This document shows, one piece after another, positions 42,839-64,000 of a stretch of 64,000 nt of DNA. The notes below the pieces were generated by a model. It saw only the letters and a program-made list of their open reading frames with translations. It was not told where the DNA came from and did not search any database. The stretch spans positions 23,014 to 87,013 of the forward strand of contig NIVC01003621.1 in assembly GCA_002269645.1 (NCBI GenBank). Reading direction: 5' to 3'. The stretch is from Macrostomum lignano (lineage: Eukaryota). Position 1 is the stretch's first letter. The number at the start of each line of letters is the position of its first letter. Position numbers and translations under genes: made by a program.

Positions 42839-44502
<1,664 letters not shown>

Positions 44503-45697
44503 TTCTCGGCAGCGTCTGATAAAGCAGTTACAATGAAGAAAATAACGATTTTTGCTATATGATTCCAAACAGTTGTGTAATACTGACTATAAATTATACG
44601 AGGGCTCACAGAAAAGTCTATAAAACACCAGAATCACTACATTGTTTCTAGTGCCTATATGTTCATGACTCATTCATTTTATCCTGTAATAAAAATAATC
44701 AATGAAAAGCAACATGTACTTTTGATTGTCTTGATTGTGGAACTATATTGACTACTGATAGTATAACATCTAGCAAATGCAAAATAGGTAAAGGATTTTA
44801 CTGTGTAAATTGAATTCAACTAAACAAAGGACGCTTGCAACATATGCAATGAAGTATAGAAACAGAAGCTCCTTCTAGAAATGTACTGCAATGCATAACT
44901 TCAATGAGAGCAATGATTTGAGTACTATTGGGTTTAGGACATTTCGTCTTATGAATTTTCGTCCGGATCACTCTGTCCGCTACGTCTGGTCCAGATAGGA
45001 CCCATATTCCAAGATAAATCTGACGGATCAAATACAGTTTCAATGTGACTAAGGACTTTTACAGACTACATATTATCTCGTGTCGTTTTAATGATTTCAC
45101 TAAACAATGATCGCTAAATATAAAAATTCGATGATTTATAACAAACTTACTTGAATGTAACGATCGTGATGCATTAAGATCATCTTCGGTAACTTTTCTC
45201 TTCAATCAACCCAAATGCGCTGTAACTACTTATCATCTTTTTCCGATTGGAGTTGAAACATGATTGATCGAAGAGACGAGGGGAGTCGTATAATCGATTT
45301 TAGCTTCAATTCTTCTAACCAAAGCTGCATTGTCTTCAAATAGAATCTTGTCAGTTGTAGTTTTGTCTGCATCGTTAGTAAAAAAGAATTAACCAAAAGC
45401 AATGTTGATACACATGCTGAAGAGCCAATGTAGGCCTAAAGTGCATGTATTTTAAAACAATAAGGTTGAAAATCCTACTAGAAACTGCTAGACGAGACTA
45501 CAAGAATTACCTTGTCGAAAGATACCAAAAGATGTCAACAGAGCAGTAAACTTCACCAAGAACTATAATTAATTAGTAGGTTGAGTTGTAAATAACTTCA
45601 AGTTTTAAGGGACATCAGCTTCATCCGTAGAAGGAAGTGGTTTTATCTGATCGTTAAAGGAGAAAATCCCATCATCTAGTTGAACCTCGGACATGCG

Positions 45698-45803: not shown

Positions 45804-45978
45804 TGAATCGTTCAGTGGCAACATCCTACTCTAGCAGATCAATATTCTCTGTAATTTTTGTCTGTGCGTCTTTAACGTCAAAAGTCGTTACTGGAAACTA
45901 CTCAAGAAGGCACACAACAAACATTTTGGAACTCAAAATTGCGTTCATCTTCGTAGACTACTCAGACGCTGCCGAGAA

Positions 45979-48900
45979 CTACTCAAGAACGGCGACGCAG
46001 CGGAAGCAGCTGCCGCCGATGAAGCCGGCCAGGCCCCCGCTCGGTCCGAACAGAAGGCAGTCGCCGTTTCCAGGAATGACCAAAGCGAACAGGCAGGCCG
46101 GCTGCGCCGTGCACTTGAAGATGCAGTCCAGCCGAGGGCTCTTCAGGCCGGACCATCGGGTCAGGAGGGCGCTTGATGCAGCTGGGAAGCTGGACTGAGC
46201 ACTGCTGACGCACAGGGAGGCTCCCTTAGCCACTGAAAACAAATATTTTGGATTCGTTAGCTACAGAAAAGCAAACTGGATTTACAATCTTCAGAGGTGC
46301 TCACTTGCTAAGATATCAATCTCAAATATGTTGATGTACTGTTGCGATGAAGAGAGTCCAGTAATGTTCTTGTAAATAGCGAAATACCTGCCCACAATGG
46401 GCTTGGAACAGTTGACTTTGATCGGGTTGTCAGCAACAGTGGGCACATCGGTGTAGTAGAAGCACAGTTGGAACAGGTGTGAATTGAATGCAGTCCACAC
46501 GGCGGGGTTGTTTGTCACACCTGTGGTGGCAGAGGTGGGATAGCGACAACTTCAAAGTCTTAAAAAGAAATTAAATAGGTTAGGTAGGCAGGCAACCGAA
46601 AGTTGAAAATTCATATCTTAGCACTTATTCTGAAACATGTCTCTAACGAGTTCAACCCCATGCCCAGAAATTATTTTAGCTGTAAACTAGCAACCTTCGC
46701 CCCCGGGAGGCAACAAAGAAAGGAATAAACTCTTTAATAAACTGCAAGTAGCTTTTGAAAATGTACGGTCACTATTACCTGAGGGCTGCGTACGGCTGTT
46801 CAGTCCAAGGACTGGGGGGGTTATCACACACTAAATTACTCCAGCTAATGCTGGCACCCATTTTACAGCTGGATGAACTGAAGCAATGCAGAGTTAAGTG
46901 TCTTGCTCGAGGAAACAAATCGTTCCGAGTGGATCGCGAATCGAACCCCTAACCTTTCAGTCGTGAGTCAGACGCTCTAACCACTAGGCTGTAGCCTCTA
47001 CCAATTGCTGAGATATCAAGGCTTATTGGGAGGTGTAACGACCCATGGTTTGATTGCTGAAGTGCTGTGGCTCATTGTGGGTTGCTCGATCAGAAGCCTT
47101 GAGCAAAAACTCAAATAGGATGCTGATATCTTAGGTTAGGTAGCTGAATTTCATAGCATTTTGCTTTAAACATCATTTTCCTTAATAAATTAGCAATGAT
47201 AATCTTCAAAGTCAAATTCAACATTCAGTTTGTTTTTCGCGCCTCCTAAATAGTCTCTAATAGTTTTATAGAACATGCAGACATAGTCTCGCCATAAAAC
47301 TTGTTACGTTACGCGTTTACTAAATTAATAAGCCTTTTGACCATAGACACCATAAGCTTGGCGCTGCGCATTTCAATCTATAGTTTTATTTTCATTGGTT
47401 CCAGGTGTTGTGCAGCCAGGACTTGAGGTTTCCAGTTGTTGGTGCGCACAGTTGCTTTATTTACGTTATACCATACTATATTAGAAATATCAGCGTAACA
47501 ATATTATCATTAAGTTGACCCGTCAAGTTACACGACACAACACCAGGTAACTTAATTACTTGGCCGGAGCTATTGGCAGGGCGGAGGGAATTAGAGTACT
47601 TAAGTAAGTACAAATAGATTAGGTCAAAATCGAGACAATAAGCAAAGACCAAAGACCAACTTCACTCACCAAAGCTGATCTGCGTAAATCTTTCGTTCCA
47701 GGTGTTGTCAAGCCGGTTCCAGACACGAGCACCGAACACAACATGCGGCTGATCCATGTCCAGCATCACCCACGGCATTGGGTCTCCAGCTGCTGAATGA
47801 ATCATGAATCTATTGGTGACGCCATCGTTGACATGGATGGGATCCGGCGTGCCCGAGTACCTTGATGATGTCTGGGCCGATTTGTTCTTGCCAACAAACA
47901 CCAGTTCGAAGTCAGAGAAATGCTGCACAGCTGTGTAATAAAGGTTTTTCTTTTGAATGTATTAGCTGTTTGATGAATTCAAAAAAATCGTAGTTAACAT
48001 CCATATTTTATTTTAGAAGTATTTTAGACGCTCCACTGCGTGTCCAGGGGCTAGTCAAGGAAAAAATGATGTGGTTAATCTTGCTAACATTTAGTAGATG
48101 CTGTTTGTCATCCAATTTTTTATGACAGCTCAATTAGCTCCCAAAGGTAAATCCTTTGAATCCATGAGCAACCCTTAATGTTGAGGGGAAGTTGAGGGAG
48201 GCTTGTTAGCAAGACAATTAAAAATTGATGATGCTATAGGCTAGAATTACAGGAAGACTGCCACCGGCAAGTGTTGTCTGCTGCAAGTTTAGCGAATGCT
48301 TTTCTCATTACTTTGACAAAAAGACAAAAGGTATTTTACTTGCAGCTGCTGGGACAGTCTAGCTTTATACTAATTAGCTGTTTGGCTTCCACCTCAAAAA
48401 CGCTATTGCATCCTGTCTTGCCTACAATTTTAGCATTGTGTGCCAGCTCTCTGTAGTAATGAACAAAATGCCACTTATACTTGGGGCAAATGAAAATGCA
48501 TTCAAAAGCATTCTCCGTGTTACTATGGCTGTGACTCTTCTTCTTACATGTAATTCACCTAACTCAAAAAACGTTTTCAGGCAGTGAGCTAAGCTTCTTT
48601 CAGAAATTTTCGGTTCAAGCTAACTGACAACTGAAGATCAGAAACTTTTAATGCACAAATGAGCAGTGTTACATGCAGGCATCCGTTAATGAAAATCTAA
48701 ACAATTCTATCATAACAAAAGGGATCATCGTTCAAAATATCCGTTTACATTCAATTTAAAAATAATTTAACGAACCCTTCTGACCCAGATACATTCTGTC
48801 TATTGATTTTACTGGTTTACCCAACAAAATTGGTCCTTTGTACGAGCTATTCCATTTTTATGATTTTTAGGCAACAGTACATGTATGTAGGATATAAAAT

Positions 48901-49299
48901 TAATATGGAATCCTAAATTTTCCTAACGAAAAGTTCTATGAATGCGACACTAGATCTCTTAGAAAGGCAGGACATATCGAAAGATGAACATTGGAATGAA
49001 CGCTTTGAACGCAAGATCGGGGATAGAATCCCACAGCCTTGACTACACTGTATTCAGAAAAGTCAATGCCAGTTATAAAGTTCATGCCCACTTCATGGCT
49101 AACGCGTGGCACCTGCGGAGTAAAGTGGAGATGAGTCCCGCCTAGATGTAACTTCCATCACCACCATGCATTTTACATGCACTACTTTATGGCCTGTATA
49201 CAGTATGTGAAAAATTAAAATACCGGTATAGTTACCAGCAACTAGCGTCAGACACAAGAGCAAGGCAACCGTTGTGATGACTGCAGTTTTACAGGCCAT
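45979..49299 (-). CDS. Secreted F-type lectin plus PAN-like domain, copy B, 4 exons, 264 aa
   Basis: Exons 49299-49236, 47930-47670, 46520-46305, 46232-45979. Exon sizes are 64/261/216/254 versus 64/264/216/254 in copy A, with the same phases. Confidence 0.78.
46780..46992 (-). mobile_element. tRNA-derived SINE with CORE-like segment, copy 2
   Basis: Reverse complement gives an A box (agcctagtgg), a B box (ggttcgattc), then cctcgagcaagacacttaactctgcattgcttcagttcatccagctgtaaaatggg, reminiscent of the MIR/CORE segment. Confidence 0.75.
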
Positions 49300-49959
49300 T
49301 TCGCTGCACACAAATGGATTGTTGAAAGAATTTGTTACTGGCAATCTAAAGCCTATATAGAACGGTTCTTTCTTAACCAAAAAGATTGCCAGTGCGTTGC
49401 CACTAGGGCTTGCTTCAATTTCAATGTGAGGCACAATTTTTCAGCAGCAATGGACTCATGTATATTTCATGGGCTGAATGAGCTGGGCCGAAAATCCCTA
49501 TTTACACTATAACCAGAAGAACTTCCCGGCGACAAACACTTAAACTGGCTAAGAAGTTGGACGGCCCAATGAGAGAATGCTAGATGTTGAAAAAATGGGC
49601 ATTGGGAAGAGACGACAGGGTGATGGCATACCCAAAGCTGTTGTCTTTCAACCTGGCTAGGTTGAAGGAAGCTCTTTCAGTGTGTGCTTTAAAAAATTGC
49701 AGTAAGTGCAGTTCATGAATACTAGGCCTATACTTTATATTTAATGTGTTTGTTTTTGGCTGCTCGTGTGTCACATTTGCTGTGCATGCTAAGCCGGCTG
49801 TGAAAATGAAAAGTGAAACCTCCAAGTCGAAGACCTGACTAAATATAAACCTTGTAAAACACGAAATTTTGTCTTTGCAAGGCTGCTCTGAATAAACATG
49901 GACTGGATGCTTTTCTTGCTAGCTTATTGTCGTAGCACAAGCAGCTTTGGGCTTTTCGC

Positions 49960-50240
49960 ACCAGGGGCTGTAGCAGCAGGGGCTTTAGCACCAGGGGCTT
50001 TAGCACCAGGGGCTTTAGCTCCAGGGGCTTTAGCACCAGGGGCTTTAGCACCAAGGGGCTTTAGCACCAAGGGGCTTTAGCACCAAGGGGCTTTAGCACC
50101 AAGGGGCTTTAGCACCAAGGGGCTTTAGCACCAAGGGGCTTTAGCACCAAGGGGCTTTAGCACCAAGGGGCTTTAGCACCAAGGGGCTTTAGCCCCAGGG
50201 GCTGTAGCAGCAGGGGCTGTAGCAGCAGGGGCTTTAGCAC
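49960..50240. repeat. 15/16-bp minisatellite
   Basis: Tandem ggggctttagcaccaa / ggggctttagcacca. Confidence 0.9.
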
Positions 50241-51185
50241 CAGAGACGCCAGAACATTTTCCGAGTGCCCTCGACTCAGTGCTATAAGATACTATCAGGA
50301 AGATAATGCAGAGTTTACTAGTAACAGCGTTTGTGTCTTGAAGATTTCTTGAAACTGTTTTAAAATTTCAAGCGGCCTTTGAAGAAGACCACCGAATATC
50401 TCTTTAAAAATTGATAACCAACAATTAAATAATCTTTTAGAAAATGTTACATGTAGCTAAATGTAGAAGAATTTAATGCAAGTCGATCCATTGCAGCTGC
50501 TGTTCCCACTACTAAAAGTAGTCAGATCACTCTCTATTTACCGTCGGCATAGAAAAAAAATCCTTGAACTCCAAGCAGTCGAATAATTTGCATAGATCAA
50601 ATTTTTATTGAATCGTAATTATTTTCATGTATATTTTTAATTTCATCAATACTTTTTTCGCTTATTTTTGCCAAGGACTACTTAAGTTGAAAGACGATCG
50701 ATATCCTTGTGTTACACTTTTACACAGTCAACTGCATGTATAAGAAATGAAAACCACCATTCTGCGGTGGTGGTTTTATTTATTTATTTATTTTTGAATA
50801 TTTATTTACTAAATAATGAAAAATTATTTAATAAATAAATAATTTCATTTATTCAATATTAAATATTTGAGGCAGAATCCTTATAAACTATTTATATTAC
50901 TTATAACAGTAGTTAAACCGAGTTTTAATCACAGCCAATCAGAAATTTTCTTCCCATTTGTTTAAATTTCCTAAACAAATCAAATTCTTTTGTTATAATT
51001 TTAGTAATTGTTAAAATGCGTCCCACCTTGCCCAAATTTTTCTGTATAAAAGGAATCAGGTTAACGCTAAAAAATATAACCTCGGCGCTCGATCTCAATA
51101 TTTGCTTTTAACTATTCTTGCGAGAATCTTTTAGCGAAACCAATCTAAATTTGGCTAAGACTTATCTCGTTATTTCTTTCATAAG

Positions 51186-51365
51186 ATAGGGAAACCAGAG
51201 GTCGTGGAGACCCAAAACCAGGATTCTAGATAGGGAAACCAGAGGTCGTGGAGACCCAAAACCAGGATTCTAGATAGGGAAACCAGAGGTCGTGGAGACC
51301 CAAAACCAGGATTCTAGATAGGGAAACCAGAGGTCGTGGAGACCCAAAACCAGGACTCTAGATAG
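51186..51365. repeat. 44-bp tandem repeat, about 4 copies
   Basis: tagggaaaccagaggtcgtggagacccaaaaccaggattctaga. Confidence 0.9.
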
Positions 51366-52052
51366 GAAAATTTGAGGTCGTAAAGACCCAGGACAGAGGC
51401 CAAAAAGGGGGAATCTCGAGGTCGTACAGACCCTAAGAAAGCCGTACAGGCTTACAATAGACATTAGGCATTAAGAGATTAGGTATTAGGGAAGTAGATT
51501 AGATACCGCTGGGCACCCTTGATCCCCAGAAAACGCTAGACTTTCGGACTGAACTAGAGTAGTATGAGTTTATGCAACTCTGCCGCACTTGCACTGCGGA
51601 GATAGGCGGTAATGTAAAAGGATAGGAGGGCGTAAAAGAGCCAGCTGAGATAGCCAATGGAAATAAGGGCGTGGGGTGGGTGTGATTGGCTGGGTGGTGA
51701 AACGCTTATGCAACTCTGCCGCACTGGGGGAGGCAGGTAGCAAAGCAAAGCATCGGAAGGTTTTGGAATAGCAGAGTAAACAAATTAAAAACAAGGTAGG
51801 CATGGCGTGGAAACGTCCACCTCAATTTGTGCCTGGCCTATGCAACTCCTCGGCGTCCCCCACTGTGTTTATCCTATAGCATGCTTATGCAACTCTGCCG
51901 CACTATTTGTCAGTGCGGAGTGAAATAGATAAGAGAGAGGCTCTGGTCTTCTTGGGTGTCTGCCTCTGGCAATTCTAATAAATGGGCAATAAACTTTGTA
52001 ACGGGTGCGGGGCTTGAGTGGAAAGGGTAGGGTTTGAAGTGGAGGTGAGGTT

Positions 52053-53299
52053 GGTGAGCTCTAAAACAGTTGTTCAACTCTGCCGCACTTTCACTGTGCA
52101 GGGACAGAGAGGTGAGCTCTAAAACAGTTGTTCAACTCTGCCGCACTTTCACTGTGCAGGGACAGAGAGGTGAGCTCTAAAACAGTTGTTCAACTCTGCC
52201 GCACTTTCACTGTGCAGGGACAGAGAGGTGAGCTCTAAAACAGTTGTTCAACTCTGCCGCACTTTCACTGTGCAGGGACAGAGAGGTGAGCTCTAAAACA
52301 GTTGTTCAACTCTGCCGCACTTTCACTGTGCAGGGACAGAGAGGTGAGCTCTAAAACAGTTGTTCAACTCTGCCACACTTTCACTGTGCAGGGACAGAGA
52401 GGTGAGCTCTAAAACAGTTGTTCAACTCTGCCGCACTTTCACTGTGCAGGGACAGAGAGGTGAGCTCTAAAACAGTTGTTCAACTCTGCCGCACTTTCAC
52501 TGTGCAGGGACAGAGAGGTGAGCTCTAAAACAGTTGTTCAACTCTGCCGCACTTTCACTGTGCAGGGACAGAGAGGTGAGCTCTAAAACAGTTGTTCAAC
52601 TCTGCCGCACTTTCACTGTGCAGGGACAGAGAGGTGAGCTCTAAAACAGTTGTTCAACTCTGCCGCACTTTCACTGTGCAGGGACAGAGAGGTGAGCTCT
52701 AAAACAGTTGTTCAACTCTGCCGCACTTTCACTGTGCAGGGACAGAGAGGTGAGCTCTAAAACAGTTGTTCAACTCTGCCGCACTTTCACTGTGCAGGGA
52801 CAGAGAGGTGAGCTCTAAAACAGTTGTTCAACTCTGCCGCACTTTCACTGTGCAGGGACAGAGAGGTGAGCTCTAAAACAGTTGTTCAACTCTGCCGCAC
52901 TTTCACTGTGCAGGGACAGAGAGGTGAGCTCTAAAACAGTTGTTCAACTCTGCCGCACTTTCACTGTGCAGGGACAGAGAGGTGAGCTCTAAAACAGTTG
53001 TTCAACTCTGCCGCACTTTCACTGTGCAGGGACAGAGAGGTGAGCTCTAAAACAGTTGTTCAACTCTGCCGCACTTTCACTGTGCAGGGACAGAGAGGTG
53101 AGCTCTAAAACAGTTGTTCAACTCTGCCGCACTTTCACTGTGCAGGGACAGAGAGGTGAGCTCTAAAACAGTTGTTCAACTCTGCCGCACTTTCACTGTG
53201 CAGGGACAGAGAGGTGAGCTCTAAAACAGTTGTTCAACTCTGCCGCACTTTCACTGTGCAGGGACAGAGAGGTGAGCTCTAAAACAGTTGTTCAACTCT
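52053..53299. repeat. 58-bp tandem array, about 21 nearly identical copies, subterminal in the Polinton
   Basis: ggtgagctctaaaacagttgttcaactctgccgcactttcactgtgcagggacagaga; period checked between 52081 and 52139. No spacers. Confidence 0.95.
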
Positions 53300-54172
53300 A
53301 GTGGTGAAACGCATATGCAACTCTGCCCTGGGTTTTTTCGTCCATAACTTGGGTGCGATTTCGCACCCTGTGCTAGATTTCAGGGTGCGATTTTCAAGAC
53401 CAGGATGCGCTGCACTGCTGCAGACAAAAACTGGTCTAACACTAATAACACTAAAGACGTACATAACACTAAATTGTGAAATCCGCATCACATCCTTTCT
53501 GGTGCGCTTTTCACACCCTGAGTCAAATTTCAGGGTGCGATTTTTAAGACCAGGATGCTATTCGCACCCATTCGCACAAAAAACCCAGACTCTGCCGCAC
53601 TTGCACTGCGGAGATAGGAGGGCCATGGTAGTATAGAGCCCTATTGCATTGGGTTTGAAAGTGGGATGGGGGAAATCCGAGAGGAGGGGATTAGGCGTTG
53701 TATGTGTCTGAGGTTGGTTAAGCAATGGCTCAGGCCTACGCACCTATGTCCCCCCCCTCCCCATTGTACACTGAGAGATATAAGGGGCTAGGCAGAGCTG
53801 TGGTTAGTTCAAGTCTTGCCGGCGGTGTAAAGGGAAAAATATAGGTATGAAAATCGGAAGGGTTGGATGATACAGTGTTCGGATCATAAAAGCTAGTTGG
53901 GGCTCACGACGCTCTCACTGCTAGGCTCTTCCGTTGATCTCAGTTTTACAACTGTATAGGCGGTTTATGGTACAGAACGAAGCCCAATTAATATAAAGTA
54001 AATATTGTGGGAAATTTTATTAGATAAAGGTCTGGGGTCTACTAAGCACAAAGTTTGTTATTGCGCCAGAATAATATCGGCGTGTACGAGTAATTATTAT
54101 TATTCTTCTAGTCTACCACAACAACTGCGCTGTGTACACCGTTCTTGGAAAGAAAATTAGGGAGGGGGGTTC

Positions 54173-54374
54173 GATTGGTCGGTTTGAGGAACAACTGGAT
54201 TGGGGTTGGTGGAAACAAATAATGATGTACATTTTATGCTGATTGGAGAGGATTGGTCGGTTTGAGGAACAACTGGATTGGGGTTGGTGGGGAACAAATA
54301 ATGATGTACATTTAATGGGGATTGGAGGGTACTGTATTCAGTGGTCAGTGTTCCGCAAATTGTATATATATAAA
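54173..54374 (+). promoter_or_regulatory. Candidate Pol II promoter: duplicated 78-bp unit with six inverted CCAAT boxes plus a TATA box
   Basis: Units 54173-54250 and 54251-54329 each contain three ATTGG. TATATAAA lies at 54367-54374, about 50 bp before ATG 54425. Confidence 0.5.
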
Positions 54375-54424
54375 TGAAGTGAAAAATAACTGCAGTCTTC
54401 CGAATTCTCACTTCCGCCGCAACA

Positions 54425-55591
54425 ATGAAGAAGATTAGCGACTCATATGCTACCTTTGAAGTCTGCCTAACTTGCAACAAGTGCGTTGTTGGATTTTTAA
54501 AGCCTGGCCATCACAAAGAGTGCAACAAGAGCACTTTCAACGTTTGCTGGCAGTGTGGCGTTGTAATGAAGCGTGAAGGAAAAGCGGGAAAATTCAAAGC
54601 TCACCGCGGGCATCAGCAGCTGCCTACTGGAGACAATGGAATGAAAAATTTAAGACGCATAGTTATGCAGAAAGCGCATCAAATAGCCGGAGAGCAAACC
54701 GCTGCACGACAGGCTCTCAGCCAATTAATAAACGGTGTAATTAGAGACGGCTGTAGCAGCGATGATGACTTTGTTGAGCAGCCGCAGCAGTCACAATTCC
54801 AACGCCCACTCGCTGCTCAGTCGGCTAGACATCCCCCGGATATCAGAGGAAAGCAGATCCGCATGGACAGTCCCGACAGCCTTCTGTACGAAGAGCCAAC
54901 CGATGAGGAGACTGAGGACAGCGACATTGCTATCAACAATGAGCAGCCTCCCAGCATCAGCGAGCAGCAGCAGCAGCAGCAGCCTCCATGCATCGGCGAG
55001 CAGCCTCTTAGCATCAGCGAGCGGCAGCAGCAGCAGCCTCCTAGCATCAGCGAGCAGCAGCAGCAGCCTCCAGGCATCGGCGAGCAGCAACAGCAGCCTC
55101 CCAGCATCAGCGAGCAGCAACAGCAGCCTCTTAGCATCAGCGAGCAGCAGCAGCAGCCTCCAGGCATCGGTGAGCAGCCTCCTAGCATCAGCGAGCAGCA
55201 GCAGCAGCCTCCAGGCATCGGCGAGCAGCCTCCTAGCATCAGCGAGCAGCAGCAGCAGCCTCCAGGCATCGGCGAGCAGCAACAGCAGCCTCCCAGCATC
55301 AGCAAGCAGCAACAGCAGCCTCTTAGCATCAGCGAGCAGCAGCAGCAGCCTCCAGGCATCGGCGAGCAGCTTTCAAGCATCAATAACATTGGTGAACAGA
55401 TTGCTCAGCCAAACATTATTGAAGAACCGGCTGGATTGGATTCCCTGATGGAGGTATTGGGAGACGGGGAATTTGAGGCGGCTAATAATGTCGTACCTCG
55501 ATACCAACTGCAACTGGTGCTGCCACCAGTAATTGGAGCAGGATATATTGTGAAAATTGAAAATGACAGCATTATTTTTGTGTCTCGTTGA
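54425..55591 (+). CDS. Polinton ORF, 388 aa, Cys/His-rich N-terminus (possible zinc finger) and Gln/Pro-rich repeats
   Basis: ATG-initiated ORF with CLTCNKC..HHKEC..CWQC..HRGH, an acidic stretch and QQQQPPSISE repeats that keep the frame. Confidence 0.6.
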   Translation: MKKISDSYATFEVCLTCNKCVVGFLKPGHHKECNKSTFNVCWQCGVVMKREGKAGKFKAHRGHQQLPTGDNGMKNLRRIVMQKAHQIAGEQTAARQALSQLINGVIRDGCSSDDDFVEQPQQSQFQRPLAAQSARHPPDIRGKQIRMDSPDSLLYEEPTDEETEDSDIAINNEQPPSISEQQQQQQPPCIGEQPLSISERQQQQPPSISEQQQQPPGIGEQQQQPPSISEQQQQPLSISEQQQQPPGIGEQPPSISEQQQQPPGIGEQPPSISEQQQQPPGIGEQQQQPPSISKQQQQPLSISEQQQQPPGIGEQLSSINNIGEQIAQPNIIEEPAGLDSLMEVLGDGEFEAANNVVPRYQLQLVLPPVIGAGYIVKIENDSIIFVSR

Positions 55592-56277
55592 GCAAGCGAA
55601 TTCTTGGTCACTTGGTCATTCTTGGCTATTGTGTATCTTAAAAATTCAGTTTAACTTACATTTTTTACTTTAATTTGTACTTTAGCTTTTTTATTTACAA
55701 TAAGCCAAGAAGTGTTTTTTGTTTAAATCAATAGCGATTAGCAAAGCTAGATAGAATATTTCGAGCATCATAGCTTTTAGTAGTATCAATCTACAATTAA
55801 ATAAGCCAATCATGTAATTGTTGACTCAAATATGAATACAAGTTTTTGAAAATCTAGAACTGCCTCAAGCAGCACCGGTCGTAGCCCCAGTTTTCAACCT
55901 TTTTTGGCAGCACCGGTCGTAGCCCCAGTTTTCAACCTTTTTTGCCTGCGGTAACTGGCAGGGGCTATGAAATTCATTTTGACAATCAAAAGCTTACCCT
56001 GATAGCATTGTAATTGTAAGTCTAAATACTTTGATGCAGAAAAATTGAAGTAAAAATATACTGCTAGCATTCGATTTTTTACTTCATTATGACTGGATAA
56101 GTTGGAATTTCGTTTCTATTTAATCAATTTCAATTAGTTTAGTAAAATTAGTAAAACTAATTTCAATTAGTTTCTCGCATGAATAAAATAGTTTGAAAGT
56201 TTAATTTGTATCCATACTTTGTATTAGAGATGTATTTGACCACTCAACTAATTACAGCTAAGGGAACCAAATAACAG

Positions 56278-58236
56278 GCAAAGTGGCAGAGCAGGACTCA
56301 AGCGAGTTTTCAGAGTCCGATTGTGACTGCTGGTCAGAATCAGAGAGCGAAGATAATTGGTCTGAATCAAGTTCCGGGGCAGACTACTCGGAGAGTGATT
56401 TCGATGGGCTCTCTGAAACCGACACCAACAACACTAAGCAAGATTGTGCTAGTAGCGGTTCCAGTCTGATCGACACCGGCGGTGGTAGTGCAGGAAGCGA
56501 TACCGGTGGCGGCAGTGCAGGAAGCGACACCGGCGGCGGCAGTGCAGGAAGCGATACCGGTGGCGGCAGTGCAGGAAGCGACACCGGCGGTGGTAGTGCA
56601 GGAAGCGACACCGGCGGCGGCAGTGCAGGAAGCGATACCGGCGGCGGCAGTGCAGGAAGCGACACCGGCGGCGGCAGTGCAGGAAGCGACACCGGCGGCG
56701 GCAGTGCAGGAAGCGACACCGGCGGTGGTAGTGCAGGAAGCGACACCGGCGGCGGCAGTGCAGGAAGCGACACCGGCGGCGGCAGTGCAGGAAGCGACAC
56801 CGGCGGCGGCAGTGCAGGAAGCGACACCGGCGGCGGCAGTGCAGGAAGTGAACTCAGCTTGATCGAAAACAACGGTGCCAGCAATATTCATCCTTATCGT
56901 GAGTCAACAACATTTTTAATTTCAGCCTTAAGTTATTTAATTCCTGGGTGCATTCGAAGTTTTGTATTTAAAAATCGAGAAATTCGATTTAAGTGTGCTT
57001 ATTGAGTCTAAATTTCATTATCATGGAATACCATCTTTTGAGTAACAGAAAATAAGCAAAGCTGTTAATTTTTCATTTTAGACATTCAGCAAGTAGCAAG
57101 TGCGCACAACGAAACTCTGGTGGTGTATCGAATTTCCGTGCCAAGCGATGCACCATGTGACCCATTTGAACTCGCCCGACGGAGCAGGGAAGCAATACAG
57201 CGAATTGTATTCGAGAAGATGGTGAATCCAAATCTTTTAGTTAGAGCGCAGCTAAAAATGAGCATCCGAATGAACAGAATCCAAGCTGGTGAAGTGGTGA
57301 ACCAGGAAGAAAGATGGGTAAGCACTCGTTTGCAACCTGTCAATGACGCCGCTTGCTTTGATGATTGGTGGAAGCAGCAGATTGATGGTTGCGAAGGCAT
57401 CATTGAGAAGATGAACACAAATGGCAGTGGTTGGGTGATTGTGCGCGTCAACTGCATCGACTTGAATATTGCGGTTGGTCAAAGACTGCGCTTCTACTCT
57501 GGTCACGCAAGCAATTTTGAATTACCTCCTCTGCTGAAGGCAAAAAAGCCGTCATCAATCCTCCTAGTACTGGCTCTGATTGTTTTTTGTATGCCTGCCT
57601 TGCAGTGCTGCATCACGGTGATGAGAATTTGAGGAAAAACCCTCAAAGGCTTTCTACTTACAAGGACTGGTTGAACGATATCAATCTTTCAGGAATTTCC
57701 TTACCCGTTGGACTCAACCAGCTAAATCGAATCGAATTACTGAACCCGAGGTTATGTTTTGTAGTTTTTTCTTGGTCAAGCAGTAACGGTGTCAGTGTGC
57801 TGAGGCAGCCACGAGTTGAAGTCGCATGCAGTCGCAAAGTAGTTCTTCTCCTACTATTGAACAAATCAGCTAACAAGGATGAAGAGGATAAACACTGGTG
57901 CGGAATTGTGAGATAGGCTACTAAACAGTAAAAGCGGTCTTTACCACAGAAAATGGTGTGAACGCTGCTTGAGCTCTTTCGTAACTGATCAGAAGCTAAG
58001 TGAGCACAGAGAGCAGTGCTATCGCTCTAATGAGTTTGCTGTCAAGGAACGAGTTCCTACTGAGAAGCGCAGCGTGCTGTCTTTTCAAAACTACTTCAAA
58101 ACTATTGAAGCACCGTTCGCTATCTATGCTGATATTGAAGCATTTAATTCTCCGCTAGGCCCCCACACTCGAGAGGTCATGCATCAGAAGGTTGAGGAAA
58201 TGGAGGTCAGCGACAATGAGCAAGTCTGCAGCACAC

Positions 58237-58271
<35 letters not shown>

Positions 58272-60921
58272 CATGTACAAGCAAGACCAGATGAGGGCAT
58301 GGTAACTGGCAAAACCGTCTTTATTTCCGAGCATCTGCCTGCAGCGGGTGGATTTCTACTCGTTGCTCGTGAAGGCATGAAGGGACCACCACTCAAGGAT
58401 CAAGGTCATGTGAAGTTGGTCTCCAGTTCAAATCCATTGGAGTGTATGGAAACGTTTCTTCATGAGCTGGAACGCGTGGCTCGAGAAGTCTATGACTGGA
58501 ACAGAAGGCACAGCTACCAAACGGCTGAAGCAGACACTACTGCTAGTCAAATCTTCAGTGAATCCTCCAACTGTCATTACTGTGATCGACAGTTTACTGA
58601 CACTAATGACAAGCACTATGACCATGATCATCTGACTGGAAAATTCAAAGGCGCCGCATGTTCACGGTGTAACAAATTAGCGCAACTTCGCCGAAGATTT
58701 CTGCCGATTTTCTTCCATAATCTCCGAAATTATGACATGCACCTCCTGTTTTCAACAGCGTTAGGAAATATGAAAAACTGGAAGCTGAGTGTCATTCCTC
58801 AGACTTCTGAACGCTATATGTCTCTTCGAATAGATTTCCAATCGCCGAAATCACTCTACCGAAAGGCAAAAAGAAAACAATTTTCTTCACTCTGCAGTTC
58901 CTCGATTCATTCCAGTTTTTAAACGCGGGTCTAGACAAACTGATTCGCAACTTACCTCTCCAGGACAGAAAATTCACTCAGCAAATGAAAAGCTGCTTTC
59001 CAAAGTTAACTAATGAAACATTGTCTATCAAGGGAGTCTTTCCCTATGATTTCGTCAAATCCCCCGCGAATTTGGCAGTGACCGAACTTCCGAGCAGAGA
59101 AGAGTTTTTCAACTCTCTGACAAAGACAGCTTGCAGTGAGGAGAGCTGTGCTCATGCGCGCAAAGCCTGGGAGCAGATCGAAGCAAAAAATTTGCACGAC
59201 TACATGCTTGCCTACCTGCAGCTTGACATCCGTCAACTTGCCGATGTTTTCAGAACTTTCGCCGTTTGAGTCTCCATGATGACGGTCTTGACCCAGCCCA
59301 CTACTTTACTACACCAGGTCTATCATTTGATTCCGCGCTGAAATCCGCGCCAACACCGCTCCAGTTGCTCGACGATGCTGAGAAGTACAGACTCTTTGAG
59401 CTTGGCATTCGTGGAGGAATGACCTTCACGAACGTTCATCATGTTACTGCCGGACCAGTCACCAGTCACCAGTCGTCAGATGGTGCAGATTCATCAAGCG
59501 CAGCTTCTAATGCCGAGACAAATTCTTTGCTCCCCGTAGACATGAATAATCTCTACGGGCAAGCGCTGTCCGAAAAACTACCCGTCAGTGACTTTGAGTG
59601 GCTTAGTGAAGAAGAACTGTGTGAATGGACAGAAGAGAAGCTACTTAAATTGGATGACGATGGTCCAGTTGGCTACCTATTTGAGGTTGATTTGGAATAT
59701 CCAGATGTAATCCACACGCAGACACAAGATTTGCCATTTGCCCCCGAGAAGGCCGCGCCTAAGCTCGAAGAGTTTCCGCCATTCATGAAACGTCTTTGGG
59801 GCGAATTGAACACTCGCAACGAGCCGTACAAAGGCTGTGTGAAACTTTTACTCACATGTCATGACAAGGAATCCTACGTCGTACATTTCCGAATTTTGAA
59901 GTTCTACTTGCGTCACGGTATGCGACTAAAAAAGATCCGAAGAGCTATTCGATTTTGTCAAGCTGCAATTTTCCAAGCCTACATTGACAGAAACAGCAAA
60001 AAGCGCTCAGTGGCTACAACGGAATTCGAAAAAGACTATTACAAACTGAAGAATAACTCCCTGTTCGGCAAAACGATGGAAAACGTACGGAAGAGGCTCA
60101 GTGTTCGAATTTCTAACAACGAGGAGCAGTCCGAAATCTATTCATCGCGTCCGAATCTTAAGGACTTTACGATTGTGACTCAAGACTTAGTAGTTTTTCA
60201 ATTTTTCAAGACATCAGTCACTCTTGACCGCCCAATCTACGTTGGTCAATGTGTTTTAGATGACTCTAAGCTGGCGATGTACCGATTGTACTATGGAAAG
60301 CTAAAGCCAACATTTGAGAATCCTGCTCTCCAACAAGGAGTTTCCCTATGCGGTGGGGACACCGATTCCTTCTTTCTGTGCTTTAAAAACATCGATGTTC
60401 AGAGTGCTGTTCTACCAGAACTCATTCGCCAGCGATTGCTAGATACCTCAAACTTCCCGGCCGACCATCAATTCCGATCCGATGATCTAAAAGCCAAGTT
60501 AGGCTGCATAAAGGACGAATCTGCAGGCAACCCCCATCGTGAATGGATCCTTTTGAGACCAAAACTATACTCGATGAAGGCCGAGTCTGGAGGGAAGAAG
60601 GCAGCCAAAGGTGTTCAGAAGAGTGTGCTGCGGGCAGAAATCACACACGATGACTACATGCAGGCGTTTGCCAGTTTGAAGGAGCTTCGCGTCTTGACAC
60701 GCAGAATCGCTAGCCGACGACACAGAGTAGTCACTTTAGAGCAACAGAAGCGTGCTCTGACTGTATGGGAGGACAAGCGTGCGTGGACTTCCCCAAACCA
60801 AAGTCTTCCGTATGGGCACTTTGCTTTAAGAGACCCCTGCCGCCACAGCTGCCGCCGTTACAATCAAGAAGCACCTCAACTAGCTGCTGATCAGGCTCCC
60901 AAGCAAATGAGGATGCAATAA
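56278..60921 (+). CDS. polB: Protein-primed DNA polymerase B with endonuclease VII-like insert; predicted upstream exon; 4 frameshifts
   Basis: Motifs YADIE (Exo I), FFHNLRNYD (Exo II), DMNNLYG, KLKNNSLFGKT, GDTDS, and CHYC..DHDHLTGKFKGAACSRCN. Frameshifts near 57545, 57910, 58870 and 59257. A predicted intron 56899-57081 joins the acidic/GS-repeat exon in phase. Confidence 0.9.
56472..56849. repeat. 27-bp coding minisatellite (DTGGGSAGS x about 14)
   Basis: gacaccggcggcggcagtgcaggaagc units; variants are synonymous in the plus frame. Confidence 0.9.
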
Positions 60922-61276
60922 CATACATTTGACTAGTGCGTACTTTGAATTGAGCATTTGCTCAGCTTTGCATTTTGGTTTTTGGAACGCAATGTACATT
61001 TTGTCTGCATAAATGCTATAGTACTTTTCTTTAACGTGCCATTGCTTTTTCAAAACTTGCTTAACTTTTATGAGTGTTAGCATTTTCATTTTCTTTCTTT
61101 TCCTATGTTCTTTTAATATTAGTATCAATTTTCGCTGTGTTGCAGTTTGCTGACAATTTTTTTAGCATCTTTTGTAGCCAAAAAATAAAACTAGTAAACA
61201 AGGCATATTAAAGTTAAATTAAAGTTTTTTTCTGCTAGTTCTTGTCGGAAGATTAAAGACGGGTAATTATTGTGCT

Positions 61277-61861
61277 TTATTTTAGTTGCATAAGTGTGTT
61301 AACAGAGCGAAACAGGGAAGAACTGTCGGATTTTAGCATACGCAGAGATTTTGCCCCACTTAGAATATAAGAAGCATTATGAAAAAGCAAGCATTTACAA
61401 TACTTAAGTTGACAAACTAAAGCTGAAAATGTTTCTGGTTCATACTGGGCTTTGGGCAAAACTTTAACAAGTTCAGTAAGCGGTAGCGCATTTTGGAGCT
61501 TAAAACGTCCATGAGCAGTAATAGTTTTAATTCGAACACAAATAGTTTGATGAGGCAGCAGTTGATCCGGCACTCTCCGATGCAGCATAGCCATGAAGCG
61601 ACGGGCAGCCCTTTTGGCGTCTGCGTGGGTCTTGGCGCCACAGATGCTCAGTTGCCCAGTAGGGTAGAGTAGCAGAGTCACTCTGGGACTTCGCATCCGC
61701 TTGATGAGCACCCGGGGCCAGACGGGCCGGTAGATCACATGAGCCATGCTGAGAGCCAGTTCCCGTAGAGGCAGCTGGGCGCCCCTGCCACCATCCAGTC
61801 TCAGATCCACTCCGCCAACCAGATTGCTCACTCTTAGGGCTGTAGCTGCAGGTGGACTCAT
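61277..61861 (-). CDS. Divergent TATA-binding protein (TBP-fold) homolog inside the Polinton
   Basis: Two TBP repeats: VSNLVGGVDL..LPLRELA..VIYRP..MRSPRVTLLLYPTGQLSICGAKTHADAKRAARRF and LPLTELV..AQYEPETFSALV..CLLFHNASYILSGAKS. These align by eye with TBP LQNIV..[29 protein letters not shown]..AARKY and YEPELFPGLI..LLIFVSGKVVLTGAK. Intact and intronless; ATG at 61861. Confidence 0.85.
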   Translation of the reverse strand: MSPPAATALRVSNLVGGVDLRLDGGRGAQLPLRELALSMAHVIYRPVWPRVLIKRMRSPRVTLLLYPTGQLSICGAKTHADAKRAARRFMAMLHRRVPDQLLPHQTICVRIKTITAHGRFKLQNALPLTELVKVLPKAQYEPETFSALVCQLKYCKCLLFHNASYILSGAKSLRMLKSDSSSLFRSVNTLMQLK

Positions 61862-61934
61862 TTTGATCCTTGACTTCTTCACCAAATCTTCTGCCAACTT
61901 CACTGCCCCTGTGCCACGGACACTGCTCGCTTCT

Positions 61935-62376
61935 TAAGTTGATGCAGAACTTTGGCTTAAGCCAACTGTAGTGCAGCAATGAATTTCTCACTGCACAGCC
62001 AGTATCTGAATCTTTAATCGAGGGTGCTCCCAAATCTTCTAGGTTATAAACCTGTCTACCAAGCAGCTCAGTCAGGAAAATAGACTTCCTTTCCCCATTT
62101 GTCCATATCGGACCACTGGCAATCCTCAGAATGTCTTCCGCCAGTTCCATGTACGGACGGGTTCCATCACTCCACTTAAACTGGTGCAGACTCTTTGATA
62201 GCTGTCTGTAGCAAACTCGCATGTCAGTGAGACTCTCTCCATGGATACGGAGGTGCGTACACATGGTGAGCAATTCGGTAGCTTCCCGCTCTGACTTGAA
62301 CAACTGCCAACTCTTTCACAACAAATCTTTTGCTTGTGCTGTTGCACGGGAATCCTTGGAAGTCAATGTAGTTCAT
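61935..62376 (-). CDS. Conserved Polinton ORF with DEDD/DnaQ exonuclease-like motif; one frameshift near 62240
   Basis: MNYIDFQGF..FVVKELA..HHVYAPPYPW / ..LHQFKWSDG..IWTNGERK..VYNLEDLGAP..CAVRN. I recognise the pattern from Maverick ORFs. The 3' end is uncertain. Confidence 0.55.
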
Positions 62377-62500
62377 GATGCAGCTTTCCCTCGAAATTTC
62401 GGAGTCAGTCCCCTTCTTATATACTTTTCTGGCAGGCAGTTTCAGCCAGGCTGTGTTGCTCCCGTACCCCTTGACTAGACTCTCCTGTTCTTTCTCCAGT

Positions 62501-63095
62501 TCACTCCCTCTGCTGTTGCCATTTTTTTTTAACTGATTTACCAACAGCGGAAAGCGGAACATTAAGCTTTTTCTGCTGCAGCAAATCGATGAACTCGTTC
62601 CACCCAACTGGTTCACGCTCACATGGCGAATCCCTCACTGCGTGCTGAATCAAGTCCAGTATGTTTGAGGAAGGATTGACGTGCCTGTGATTTCCACCTC
62701 CCCGTTTTCACAAACTCGAATCAGCTCTGGATTGGTGGACAGGATCGTCCATAGACTGCGAGCCCTGGTTTTGAATTTCTGTGGCACCGACTTGCTGATC
62801 TTCTCATCCCAGGTGTTCATCTGTGGTGTCTCTGTTTTCATCAACTTGGCTTCAGTATTGCGTGCTCCTTCTTTTCCAGCGTGCTTGCGTCTGGCCAGCA
62901 AACTTTGCATTGCACTTTGATACATGGTGGTTTTCACATCTTCTGGACAATCTTCGGCATATACAAGATATCATCGCATTTCTTCTGAGCCTGCTTCAAG
63001 TTAGCGTCAGTGCTATTCTCATTTGGCTTCAAATTCTGCATCAACATCTCATACTCTGCTTTAGGAATCAGAACCATTTCTGAAAATTTGTTCAT
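62501..63095 (-). CDS. Conserved Polinton hypothetical protein, 2 frameshifts
   Basis: MNKFSEMVLIP.. / ..KISKSVPQKFKTRARSLW..GEVEITG / SSNILDLIQ..PVGWNEFIDLL..NVPLSAVGK*, reconstructed across three frames. Confidence 0.55.
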
Positions 63096-63398
63096 TTTGC
63101 TTCTTCTTCTTTACCAGCTTAAGCAGAATCGGGAGTATTTTAATGAAGCCAGCCTTCAACAAGTCTGTCTTTCTTCTTTTGTGAGTAATCTTTCGAATTA
63201 TCTCTTTTGACTTTGCAAGAACAGCTTTTCATCGAGCGAAAACGATATATTGTTTTGTAAGAGATTATGGCAGGCCTCGACAAGAAAATAACGCACTTCT
63301 TTTGGACAATTTTTTATCAACAGCCGCTTGAAGCGCACGGTATATTTAGGTGACGCAAGAACCGCAAAAATACTTGCATGTGAATCAAGCACTTCCAT
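63061..63398 (-). CDS. Small conserved Polinton/adintovirus protein next to the ATPase, one frameshift near 63205
   Basis: MEVLDSH..KRLLIKNCPKEVRYFLVEACHNLLQNNI..FLQS / KEIIRKITHK..LLKAGFIKILPILLKLV; basic and amphipathic. Confidence 0.5.
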
Positions 63399-63439
63399 AG
63401 CGATGAAAACAATAGCTGATAAAAACAAGCTTCACTTTC

Positions 63440-64000
63440 TTAAGCAAATACAAGATGGGGTCGCTGGTTGGGCAGAATTCTGGCCCGCACTCGCAGCTCA
63501 TCGGGAGTTGATGGGTGAAAGTCTAGGAACAGGTAAGGCTCCCCTGCCCTGCGCGGTCACGTGCTTGAACACTGACAGCAGAAAGCCGGGCTTCTCTGTA
63601 AAGCACTGCCTGCCCAGTGCTGCAATCTGCAGCTGGTCTCTGGGGTTTTTCAAGATAGCTAAGTACATTACATTCAAGCTCATTGTTCGCGACTCTTTTC
63701 CCTTAAAAAATATATTCTGAGTCAGCATCACCAAGAAGCACGGCAAGTGATGTGCGATTCCTGTGAAAAAATTTCGCATTGAAGCAGAGTTTGAAGTTTC
63801 CTCTATTAAGTCATCGAAAAACAACCAGGTCATTGGGCCTAAGTGCTGCCTCGATGTTGGTGGGAAATCCCTGGCGCAGCTGCACACCTAGGCTGCTCAG
63901 TTCTGCATGGCCTGCCTGTGAGATCCCATAGTACACAGAACTCTGCCAGGCTTCACATCAAACATGACGTCTCTGTACTGGATCAGGTGTTTGATGAAGG
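63440..64000 (-). CDS. A32/FtsK-like DNA packaging ATPase, 5'-truncated by the window, with frameshifts
   Basis: Walker B region NDLVVF/DDL, FFTGIAHH..FLVMLTQNIF, RTMSLNVMYLAILKNPRDQLQIAALGRQ, and C-terminal YLFLDFHPSTPDELRVRARILP after a shift. At least three frameshifts. Confidence 0.85.

What the first reader, a model, noticed from the sequence alone, without database searches (positions are those of the whole stretch)
56278..57130. pPolB appears to have a spliceosomal intron and an acidic, Gly/Ser-repeat N-terminal exon
Seen: the pPolB frame has no ATG at its start, but is preceded by a strong acceptor (tttttcattttag, ending 57081). A perfect donor C|GTGAGT lies at 56899. Both are phase 1, so removing the AT-rich 183-nt segment gives a continuous NIHPY-H-IQQVASAHNETLVVYRIS. 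Inference: a host-type intron in an element polymerase, adding a long disordered extension ahead of the region where the terminal-protein primer is expected.
Basis: partly seen in the sequence, partly recalled or inferred. Interest (0 to 1): 0.7.

Follow-up and report, generated by a model that had tools for sequence, protein, structure and literature searches.

The report
Intron in a flatworm Polinton polymerase
The DNA polymerase gene of a virus-like mobile element in a flatworm genome very probably contains an ordinary host-type intron just before its primer domain, although such genes are usually described as intron-free; RNA proof is still missing.

Summary
In detail: donor C|GTGAGT at 56899, acceptor TTTTAG ending 57081, both phase 1, 183 nt, 28% GC, four in-frame stops. 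The element is a Polinton-type pPolB, 98% identical to Macrostomum lignano proteins. GC content and codon score drop and recover near the splice sites. The downstream exon folds as a complete terminal-protein domain starting at the acceptor. A second M. lignano Polinton family (38% identical) reads IEPT-x-IQ where this gene would read IHPY-x-IQ, and its gene models best fit a phase-1 junction at that codon.

No transcript evidence was reachable. Rivals are the host's AUG-ending spliced leader joined at 57089, splicing from the upstream zinc-finger gene, or decay. Disordered N-terminal extensions are common in relatives (83 of 121), so the intron is the unusual part. Adenoviruses splice their equivalent genes. 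Verdict: probably real (about 0.72), new variant of a known kind.

The parts
54425..55591 (+). ORF54: upstream gene, CxxC...HxxH N-terminus, Q/P repeats, QLVLP near the C-terminus; TATA-like box at 54363-54374. Holds candidate donors 55170 (phase 1) and 55529 (phase 0). Probably a separate gene, possibly an alternative first exon
   Evidence: counterpart in family 2, N-terminal similarity p=0.011 and C-terminal p=0.15 against 2000 shuffles; no Pfam hit; Atlas hits only 0.81
56182..56257 (+). AATAAA (56182), out-of-frame ATG at 56230 (14 codons to a stop), branch-like CTAAT (56248) plus TTACAG (ends 56257), which fits the host trans-splice acceptor motif but is out of frame with exon A
   Evidence: motif from PMC8629364
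56278..56898 (+). Exon A: 206 full codons, acidic Ser-rich head (19 D/E and 18 S in 66 aa), then the repeat, ending ...NIHPY. No in-frame ATG. 5' boundary uncertain (phase-1 AGs at 56277 and 56313)
56471..56848 (+). 27-nt tandem repeat, 14 copies, reading GGGSAGSDT in frame 0; all 11 unit differences (4 sites) are silent in this frame
56899..57081 (+). Predicted phase-1 GT-AG intron, 183 nt, 28% GC, four in-frame stops; branch-like TAAC at 57043 and TTAAT at 57065
57082..57482 (+). PRD1-like terminal-protein domain; first strand begins at the second codon after the acceptor; predicted priming Ser at 57426-57428 (GSGW loop)
57542..57910 (+). vOTU-like protease domain, Cys at 57581 and His at 57893 (assigned by motif and position; frame break just upstream)
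57912..59260 (+). Exonuclease region with an endonuclease VII-like insertion (58551-58679); frame-broken
59248..60921 (+). Polymerase domain with motifs A (59539), B (60043) and C (60352)

Best explanation
This is the protein-primed DNA polymerase gene of a Polinton (Maverick/adintovirus-type) element in a Macrostomum genome, and 56899-57081 is a real U2-type intron. SHOWN: the splice signals, their matching phase, the composition step, and that the acceptor sits at the N-terminal edge of a terminal-protein fold followed by vOTU, exonuclease and polymerase regions. INFERRED: the host spliceosome joins exon A to the terminal-protein exon, giving a polyprotein of disordered acidic Gly/Ser tail, TP, vOTU, Exo and Pol. 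By the published model vOTU cuts behind TP, and TP primes replication from its Ser, so the tail would stay on the protein bound to the genome ends. Retention of the intron ends translation at 57003, so polymerase output would depend on splicing. The tail is most likely a tolerant linker whose repeat has expanded, since the second family has about 30 residues and no repeat there. UNRESOLVED: where translation starts (a fifth frame break after the ATG at 56230, an exon from ORF54, or the spliced leader's AUG). The intron probably predates the split of the two M. lignano families. This copy, as assembled, cannot make a full polymerase.
For: Signals, phase, GC and stops; shuffles; GC change-points 56883-57086. 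Codon log-odds are +0.35, +0.44 and +0.19 over the three parts of exon A, -0.25 and -0.67 inside the intron, +0.27 after it (the exon after the intron was in the training set, exon A was not). Donor matches the host's top motif GT[G/A]AG (PMC8629364). Exon B model pLDDT 92.5 with a strand from residue 2; topology equals the published TP; best solved matches are Y-family little-finger domains, Z 8.9, rmsd 2.9, 107 aligned; best viral match is an adintovirus protein, E 5e-7. Family 2: 14 of 15 M. lignano models read IEPT-S-IQ, 1 of 15 reads NSVT-G-IQ. Of 113 GT sites in 54425-57060, the one at 56899 has the best-matching preceding 4-mer to IEPT; exon-end match p 0.002-0.019 over five lengths, unspliced reading negative. 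Close relatives P0004, P0124, P0128 and P0141 have called starts inside or at the edge of TP, and P0005 has a leader that looks like intron read-through.
Against: No spliced read or transcript-derived protein was found: none of 267-2000 aa containing the start of exon B among 249 candidates, none matching exon A among 12 candidates of 135-433 aa, 6 hits and none spliced in the 50% library. Exon A has no start codon. The copy has four frame breaks, so it may be decayed or poorly assembled. The junction match is short and post hoc. The acceptor is TAG, while the host's top motif is CAG, and a CAG lies 8 nt downstream in another phase. Silent repeat changes are weak evidence (p 0.21 given C-to-T). 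P0006, in the same 99/99 clade, has a contiguous zinc finger plus TP.
Confidence: 0.72

Rival explanations
1. Trans-splicing: the host spliced leader, which ends in AUG, is joined at the phase-0 CAG ending 57089 and starts the terminal protein directly. Exon A is then a separate ORF or outron, as in an operon.
For: M. lignano leader ends in ATG, 30% of genes are trans-spliced, operon spacing about 100 bp; flatworm leader AUG can start ORFs (PMC9851317); 57089 is in frame for 180 codons and would keep most of the first strand.
Against: An unpaired acceptor is required, but a consensus donor lies 183 nt upstream (passage). The first AG after the U-tract is 57081, which would give 4 codons. ATTCAG misses the [T/C]TNCAG motif. 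No AATAAA or ATTAAA lies between exon A and the acceptor. It does not explain the IHPY/IEPT match.
Confidence: 0.1
2. The zinc-finger gene ORF54 is spliced straight to the terminal-protein exon, skipping exon A (55170 to 57081 in phase 1, or 55529 to 57089 in phase 0), giving the zinc finger-linker-TP layout usual in the family.
For: 71 of 120 relatives carry a zinc-finger pattern in the first 260 aa; ORF54 has a TATA box and ATG; model P0127 has this layout in family 2; codon score falls after 55529.
Against: 13 of 15 family-2 models keep the genes apart, and the two fused ones disagree. Both donors are weak or lie inside a repeat. Exon A is coding-like and ends in a consensus donor. As a three-exon form (ORF54, exon A, TP) this would complete, not replace, the best explanation.
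Confidence: 0.1
3. No splicing: the 183 nt are an AT-rich insertion or spacer in a dead copy, and the splice signals are chance.
For: Four frame breaks, one per 960 nt; degraded Mavericks show insertions that gene finders call introns (PMC8097293); no RNA evidence.
Against: Both ends carry host-type signals in matching phase (shuffles 2-6% and 0.3%); the boundary coincides with a domain edge and with a junction in a 38%-identical family; the rest of the gene is 92-99% identical to sister proteins, so decay is slight.
Confidence: 0.08

Closest known systems
Polinton/Maverick (adintovirus) pPolB with TP-vOTU-Exo-Palm order (10.1101/2024.03.18.585575; PMC8502044)
   Same: Domain order, TP topology with Ser before the last strand, vOTU Cys and His, polymerase motifs; an upstream CxxC gene recalls the 'Oncoid' position before PolB.
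   Different: Core genes are reported intronless in vertebrate (PMC8097293) and nematode (10.1101/2022.07.12.499685) elements; here a GT-AG intron precedes TP, with a 206-aa acidic Gly/Ser exon.
Adenovirus E2B (pTP and Ad-pol), spliced transcripts (PMC11304566)
   Same: Terminal protein and protein-primed polymerase are made from spliced mRNA; pTP's ORF spans two exons in THEV. Adenoviruses are held to descend from polintons.
   Different: There TP and polymerase are separate genes with shared leader exons and the vOTU is inactive; here one fused gene, a short intron and a long low-complexity exon. Common origin of the introns is not shown.
Introner insertions in dinoflagellate Maverick/Polinton-like elements (10.1101/2025.03.18.643946)
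   Same: Spliceosomal introns inside polinton-like elements.
   Different: Those are mobile introns, mostly gained after integration; this one appears positionally shared by divergent families, and the window holds no second copy of it (self-BLAST).
Second M. lignano Polinton family (UniRef100_A0A1I8J9M7, A0A1I8J8Q7 and others)
   Same: Same clade (99/99), same upstream gene type, I-x-P-x-x-I-Q at the junction, Ser-rich N-terminal piece.
   Different: 38% identity in TP; upstream piece about 30 aa with its own Met and no repeat; exon structure inferred from protein models only.

Membership tests
U2-type GT-AG spliceosomal intron (M. lignano) | 5' donor GT[G/A]AG | tested here: met
   GTGAGT at 56899; host motif
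U2-type GT-AG spliceosomal intron (M. lignano) | Pyrimidine tract plus YAG acceptor | tested here: met
   10 of 11 pyrimidines then TAG at 57079-57081; TAG rather than the host's commonest CAG
U2-type GT-AG spliceosomal intron (M. lignano) | Branch point | tested here: inconclusive
   only loose matches, TAAC 57043 and TTAAT 57065
U2-type GT-AG spliceosomal intron (M. lignano) | Removed from mRNA | not testable with these tools
   no RNA or host DNA collection; protein searches found no spliced product
[quoted passage not shown] | (b0)-b1-a1-b2-b3-a2-b4 fold related to the Y-family little finger | tested here: met
   (Z 8.9, rmsd 2.9, 107 aligned)
[quoted passage not shown] | Ser or Tyr beside Gly/Pro between a2 and b4 | tested here: met
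   GSG loop, Ser conserved in 90% or more of 71 rows; priming itself not shown
Polinton/Maverick element | Protein-primed PolB with vOTU | tested here: met
   PF03175 E 1e-5, just under its cut-off; motifs; 538 relatives
Polinton/Maverick element | RVE integrase | tested here: inconclusive
   none among 12 ORFs scanned, but the element appears to run off the window end
Polinton/Maverick element | [quoted passage not shown] | tested here: inconclusive
   no long inverted pair in 48000-64000; right end probably outside the window
Polinton/Maverick element | Capsid proteins, packaging ATPase, maturation protease | tested here: inconclusive
   no Pfam hit among 12 ORFs; expected beyond 64000
Beta-class adintovirus PolB | OTU-bearing PolB divergent from pfam03175 and grouping with Beta references | tested here: inconclusive
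   weak PF03175 match fits; no reference Alpha or Beta sequence in the tree
SL trans-spliced gene | Acceptor without upstream donor, [T/C]TNCAG, leader reads | tested here: inconclusive
   56257 and 56313 fit the motif but are out of frame; 57089 is in frame but misses the motif and has a donor upstream; reads not testable

The most novel reading that the evidence does not exclude
A phase-1 spliceosomal intron at the N-terminal edge of the terminal-protein domain is an inherited feature of a Polinton lineage, and 5' phase-1 introns occur more widely in this pPolB class, hidden because gene callers read through them (12 of 24 relatives with U-rich leaders show an acceptor-like triplet against 23% in controls). 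Polinton replicase would then depend on splicing, as in adenovirus E2B, with a swappable first exon, and in flatworms might take its start codon from the host spliced leader.
Probability: 0.3. Interest if true: 0.68.

Novelty: new variant of a known kind. Interest (0 to 1): 0.5.

Why it matters
Surveys call Polinton core genes intronless and use that to define intact elements (PMC8097293). A conserved intron in pPolB would mean that ORF-only annotation truncates these polymerases at the 5' end and may misjudge intact elements. It would tie replicase expression to the host spliceosome and offer a parallel, or precursor, to spliced adenovirus E2B. It is directly testable with existing M. lignano RNA-seq. 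The surprise is moderate: nuclear DNA viruses splice, introns are known in dinoflagellate polinton-like elements and in Maverick cargo genes, and disordered N-terminal extensions are ordinary in this family.

Tried and rejected
Searches for a spliced product found none: exon B, longer proteins, 1 hit among 249 candidates; exon A residues 1-72, 0 of 12; exact look-up of five window ORFs, 0 of 5; 50% library, 6 hits. Proteins with exon B under 267 aa, or with exon A outside 135-433 aa, were not covered by the word-index searches. The three sister proteins (P0001-P0003) begin inside TP after a frame difference and say nothing on the intron. ORF54 and exon A had no BLAST hit among 123 proteins; the Atlas gave ORF54 only 0.81, not used. 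The first family-wide read-through test was negative: 8 of 21 against 158 of 356 (p 0.65), and 36 of 120 against 33%. A second round of six patterns gave two phase-1 patterns enriched (16 of 120, p 0.01; 21 of 120, p 0.00045), one not (18 of 120, p 0.33), phase 0 p 0.55, phase 2 p 0.048, negative control p 0.93; these were chosen after viewing the data and relatives are not independent, so this is a lead only. Foldseek of the family-2 model against PDB had no match at E 0.001 or better; its residues upstream of TP were low-confidence, so they add no structural support. An automatic survey for other short AT-rich introns in 51001-64000 returned nothing, not even this one, since its pattern was too strict; discarded. 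The QLVLP match alone is not significant (p 0.15). Six of 43 candidate relatives were left out of the tree. Host genome copies, RNA reads, viral and metagenome contigs stayed unchecked; the prokaryotic genome scan was not used as it cannot hold this element.

Full report
Setting. The window is eukaryotic, repeat-rich DNA. From about 51 kb to its end it holds part of a Polinton-type element: tandem arrays, a gene at 54425-55591 (ORF54), pPolB on the plus strand to 60921, and minus-strand genes beyond, one TBP-like. The piece after the acceptor matched Macrostomum lignano BOX15_Mlig004794g8 at 98% over 35% of the query, with two sister proteins in its cluster. The host is therefore almost surely M. 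lignano (inference from named records). That annotation derives from a genome-guided transcriptome (PMC5730564, passages), so sister loci are probably transcribed over pPolB.

Observation. All stated features are present: GTGAGT at 56899, a U-tract and TAG ending 57081, both phase 1, 183 nt, 28% GC. Because 183 is a multiple of three, both exons lie in one genomic frame, separated by four stops. The first in-frame ATG is 57219. A change-point fit without splice information gave 56883-57086. A codon score trained on the element's own polymerase is positive through exon A, turns negative at the donor and positive at the acceptor. Shuffles gave a phase-1 donor of this kind in 2-6% and such an acceptor in 0.3% of 5000 trials (thresholds post hoc). 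The donor fits the host's top motif GT[G/A]AG (PMC8629364, passages).

Exon A has no in-frame ATG and is closed upstream by TAA at 56259. The polymerase has four frame breaks relative to sister proteins, about one per 960 nt, from sequencing error or decay. Three starts remain open: the ATG at 56230, in another frame, if this copy has a fifth break; an exon from ORF54 (phase-1 donor 55170 to AG 56277 or 56313); or the host spliced leader, which ends in ATG and can supply start codons in flatworms (PMC9851317, passages). The best trans-splice-like site, CTAAT...TTACAG at 56248-56257, lies 70 nt after an AATAAA but is out of frame (22 codons).

What follows the acceptor. With 70 relatives, the 152 residues after the acceptor fold at pLDDT 92.5, with strands 2-7, 12-18, 51-67, 70-80, 117-133 and helices 27-45, 89-113. 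This is the topology given for PRD1-like terminal proteins, with the linking residue between the second helix and last strand (10.1101/2024.03.18.585575, section 6); the GSGW Ser at 57426 sits there and is conserved in at least 90% of 71 rows. The best solved matches are Y-family little-finger domains (Z 8.9, rmsd 2.9, 107 aligned), the fold that paper links to these TPs. The best viral match is a Drosophila adintovirus protein (E 5e-7). vOTU, exonuclease and polymerase motifs follow. The intron thus sits on a domain edge.

Comparative evidence. The 50% library returned a second M. lignano family, 38% identical in TP. Of its 15 models, 14 read IEPT-S-IQ before the domain and one reads NSVT-G-IQ; another continues NSVT-V. 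If the copies are identical, the only arrangement fitting all of them is a phase-1 donor after NSVT and a phase-1 acceptor in the codon before IQ, the same codon and phase as here (my inference from protein sequences; no DNA seen; one Ser/Gly difference between copies would also explain it). Independently, exon A's end (IHPY) resembles IEPT: best of 113 GT sites, p 0.002-0.019 by length, while the unspliced reading scores negative. If family 2 is unspliced there, this match still marks the 183 nt as an insertion between homologous neighbours. Both families, P0004, P0005 and P0006 form a 99/99 clade. P0004 and P0124 start at an internal Met, P0128 and P0141 at a Val on the domain edge, and P0005's leader resembles intron read-through. 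P0006 has a contiguous zinc finger and TP, so the intron need not be universal in the clade.

The extension. Of 121 relatives, 83 have 50 or more residues before TP (median 76) and 71 of 120 a zinc-finger pattern. Exon A is 206 codons, 60 Gly and 48 Ser, with 14 copies of a 27-nt repeat. All unit differences are silent in frame 0, which is weak once C-to-T bias is allowed for (p 0.21 against 0.007). Family 2 has about 30 residues here. I read the tail as a tolerant linker with a repeat expansion, not a dedicated module (inference).

Against. No spliced product was found. The family-wide read-through signal was negative at first and positive for two of three phase-1 patterns later (12 of 24 against 550 of 2409, p 0.005), all post hoc.

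Literature. Ten searches found no report of a spliceosomal intron in an animal Polinton pPolB and no Macrostomum Polinton study (one unrelated paper, listing only). Seen as passages only: PMC8097293 (no introns in intact vertebrate elements), 10.1101/2022.07.12.499685 (core genes intronless, cargo genes with introns), 10.1101/2025.03.18.643946 (introners in dinoflagellate elements), PMC11304566 (spliced pTP and Ad-pol), PMC8502044 (its one 'intron' mention was not among the passages shown), PMC11071296 (likewise its 'splic' and 'intron' mentions), PMC10748475 and 10.64898/2026.10.13.758929 (self-splicing introns only), PMC11131425 (no mention). No supplements were read. Repbase entries, GenBank annotations of adintoviruses and subscription papers were not searchable and may already record such exons. 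The first-AG scanning rule, nonsense decay of retained transcripts and the AGTAGT terminus are recalled, not from a call.

Verdict. Intron probably real (about 0.72 for exon A joined to TP; about 0.8 that the 57081 acceptor is used in cis). Start codon unresolved, copy broken. New variant of a known kind; interest 0.5.

Noticed in passing
window 61277-61861 (-): The element carries a full two-repeat TATA-binding-protein-like ORF (Pfam TBP E 7e-21; PDB TBP E 3e-14), convergent with pPolB. No dedicated literature search was made; two papers checked had no TBP mention.
   Followed up: partly
window 51184-51390 and 52053-53299: 44-nt x 4.7 and near-perfect 58-nt x 21.5 arrays near the presumed left end; the motif CAACTCTGCCGCAC recurs outside the array. 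AGTAGT at 50908 is a candidate terminus (motif recalled).
   Followed up: no
window 54425-55591: ORF54, with a strong TATA box, CxxC...HxxH head and Q/P repeats, has a counterpart before pPolB in the second M. lignano family, where the head reads LxCxE (P0138). It occupies the position of adintovirus 'Oncoid' genes.
   Followed up: partly
window about 57370-57390: Three sister proteins (P0001-P0003) share a frame difference from this copy inside the terminal-protein region and so begin at an out-of-frame ATG; they lack some of this copy's own breaks.
   Followed up: partly
window 62227-62634 (-): ORF piece with IDFQGF...KELA, resembling a DEDD-type nuclease start (recalled; no Pfam hit).
   Followed up: no
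window 55869-55944: Exact 38-nt tandem duplication, GC-rich, in the AT-rich spacer before exon A; possible regulatory element.
   Followed up: no
window 44000-44520 and 45970-46480: Inverted near-identical copies of a spliced host gene fragment, with a short GTGAG...TTTCAG intron at about 44177-44247.
   Followed up: no
relatives P0008, P0043, P0055, P0061, P0080, P0081, P0085, P0096, P0108: Gene-caller N-termini rich in F/I/L ending in F-T-D, F-S-E or F-S-G, as expected when an intron 3' end is read through in phase 1.
   Followed up: partly
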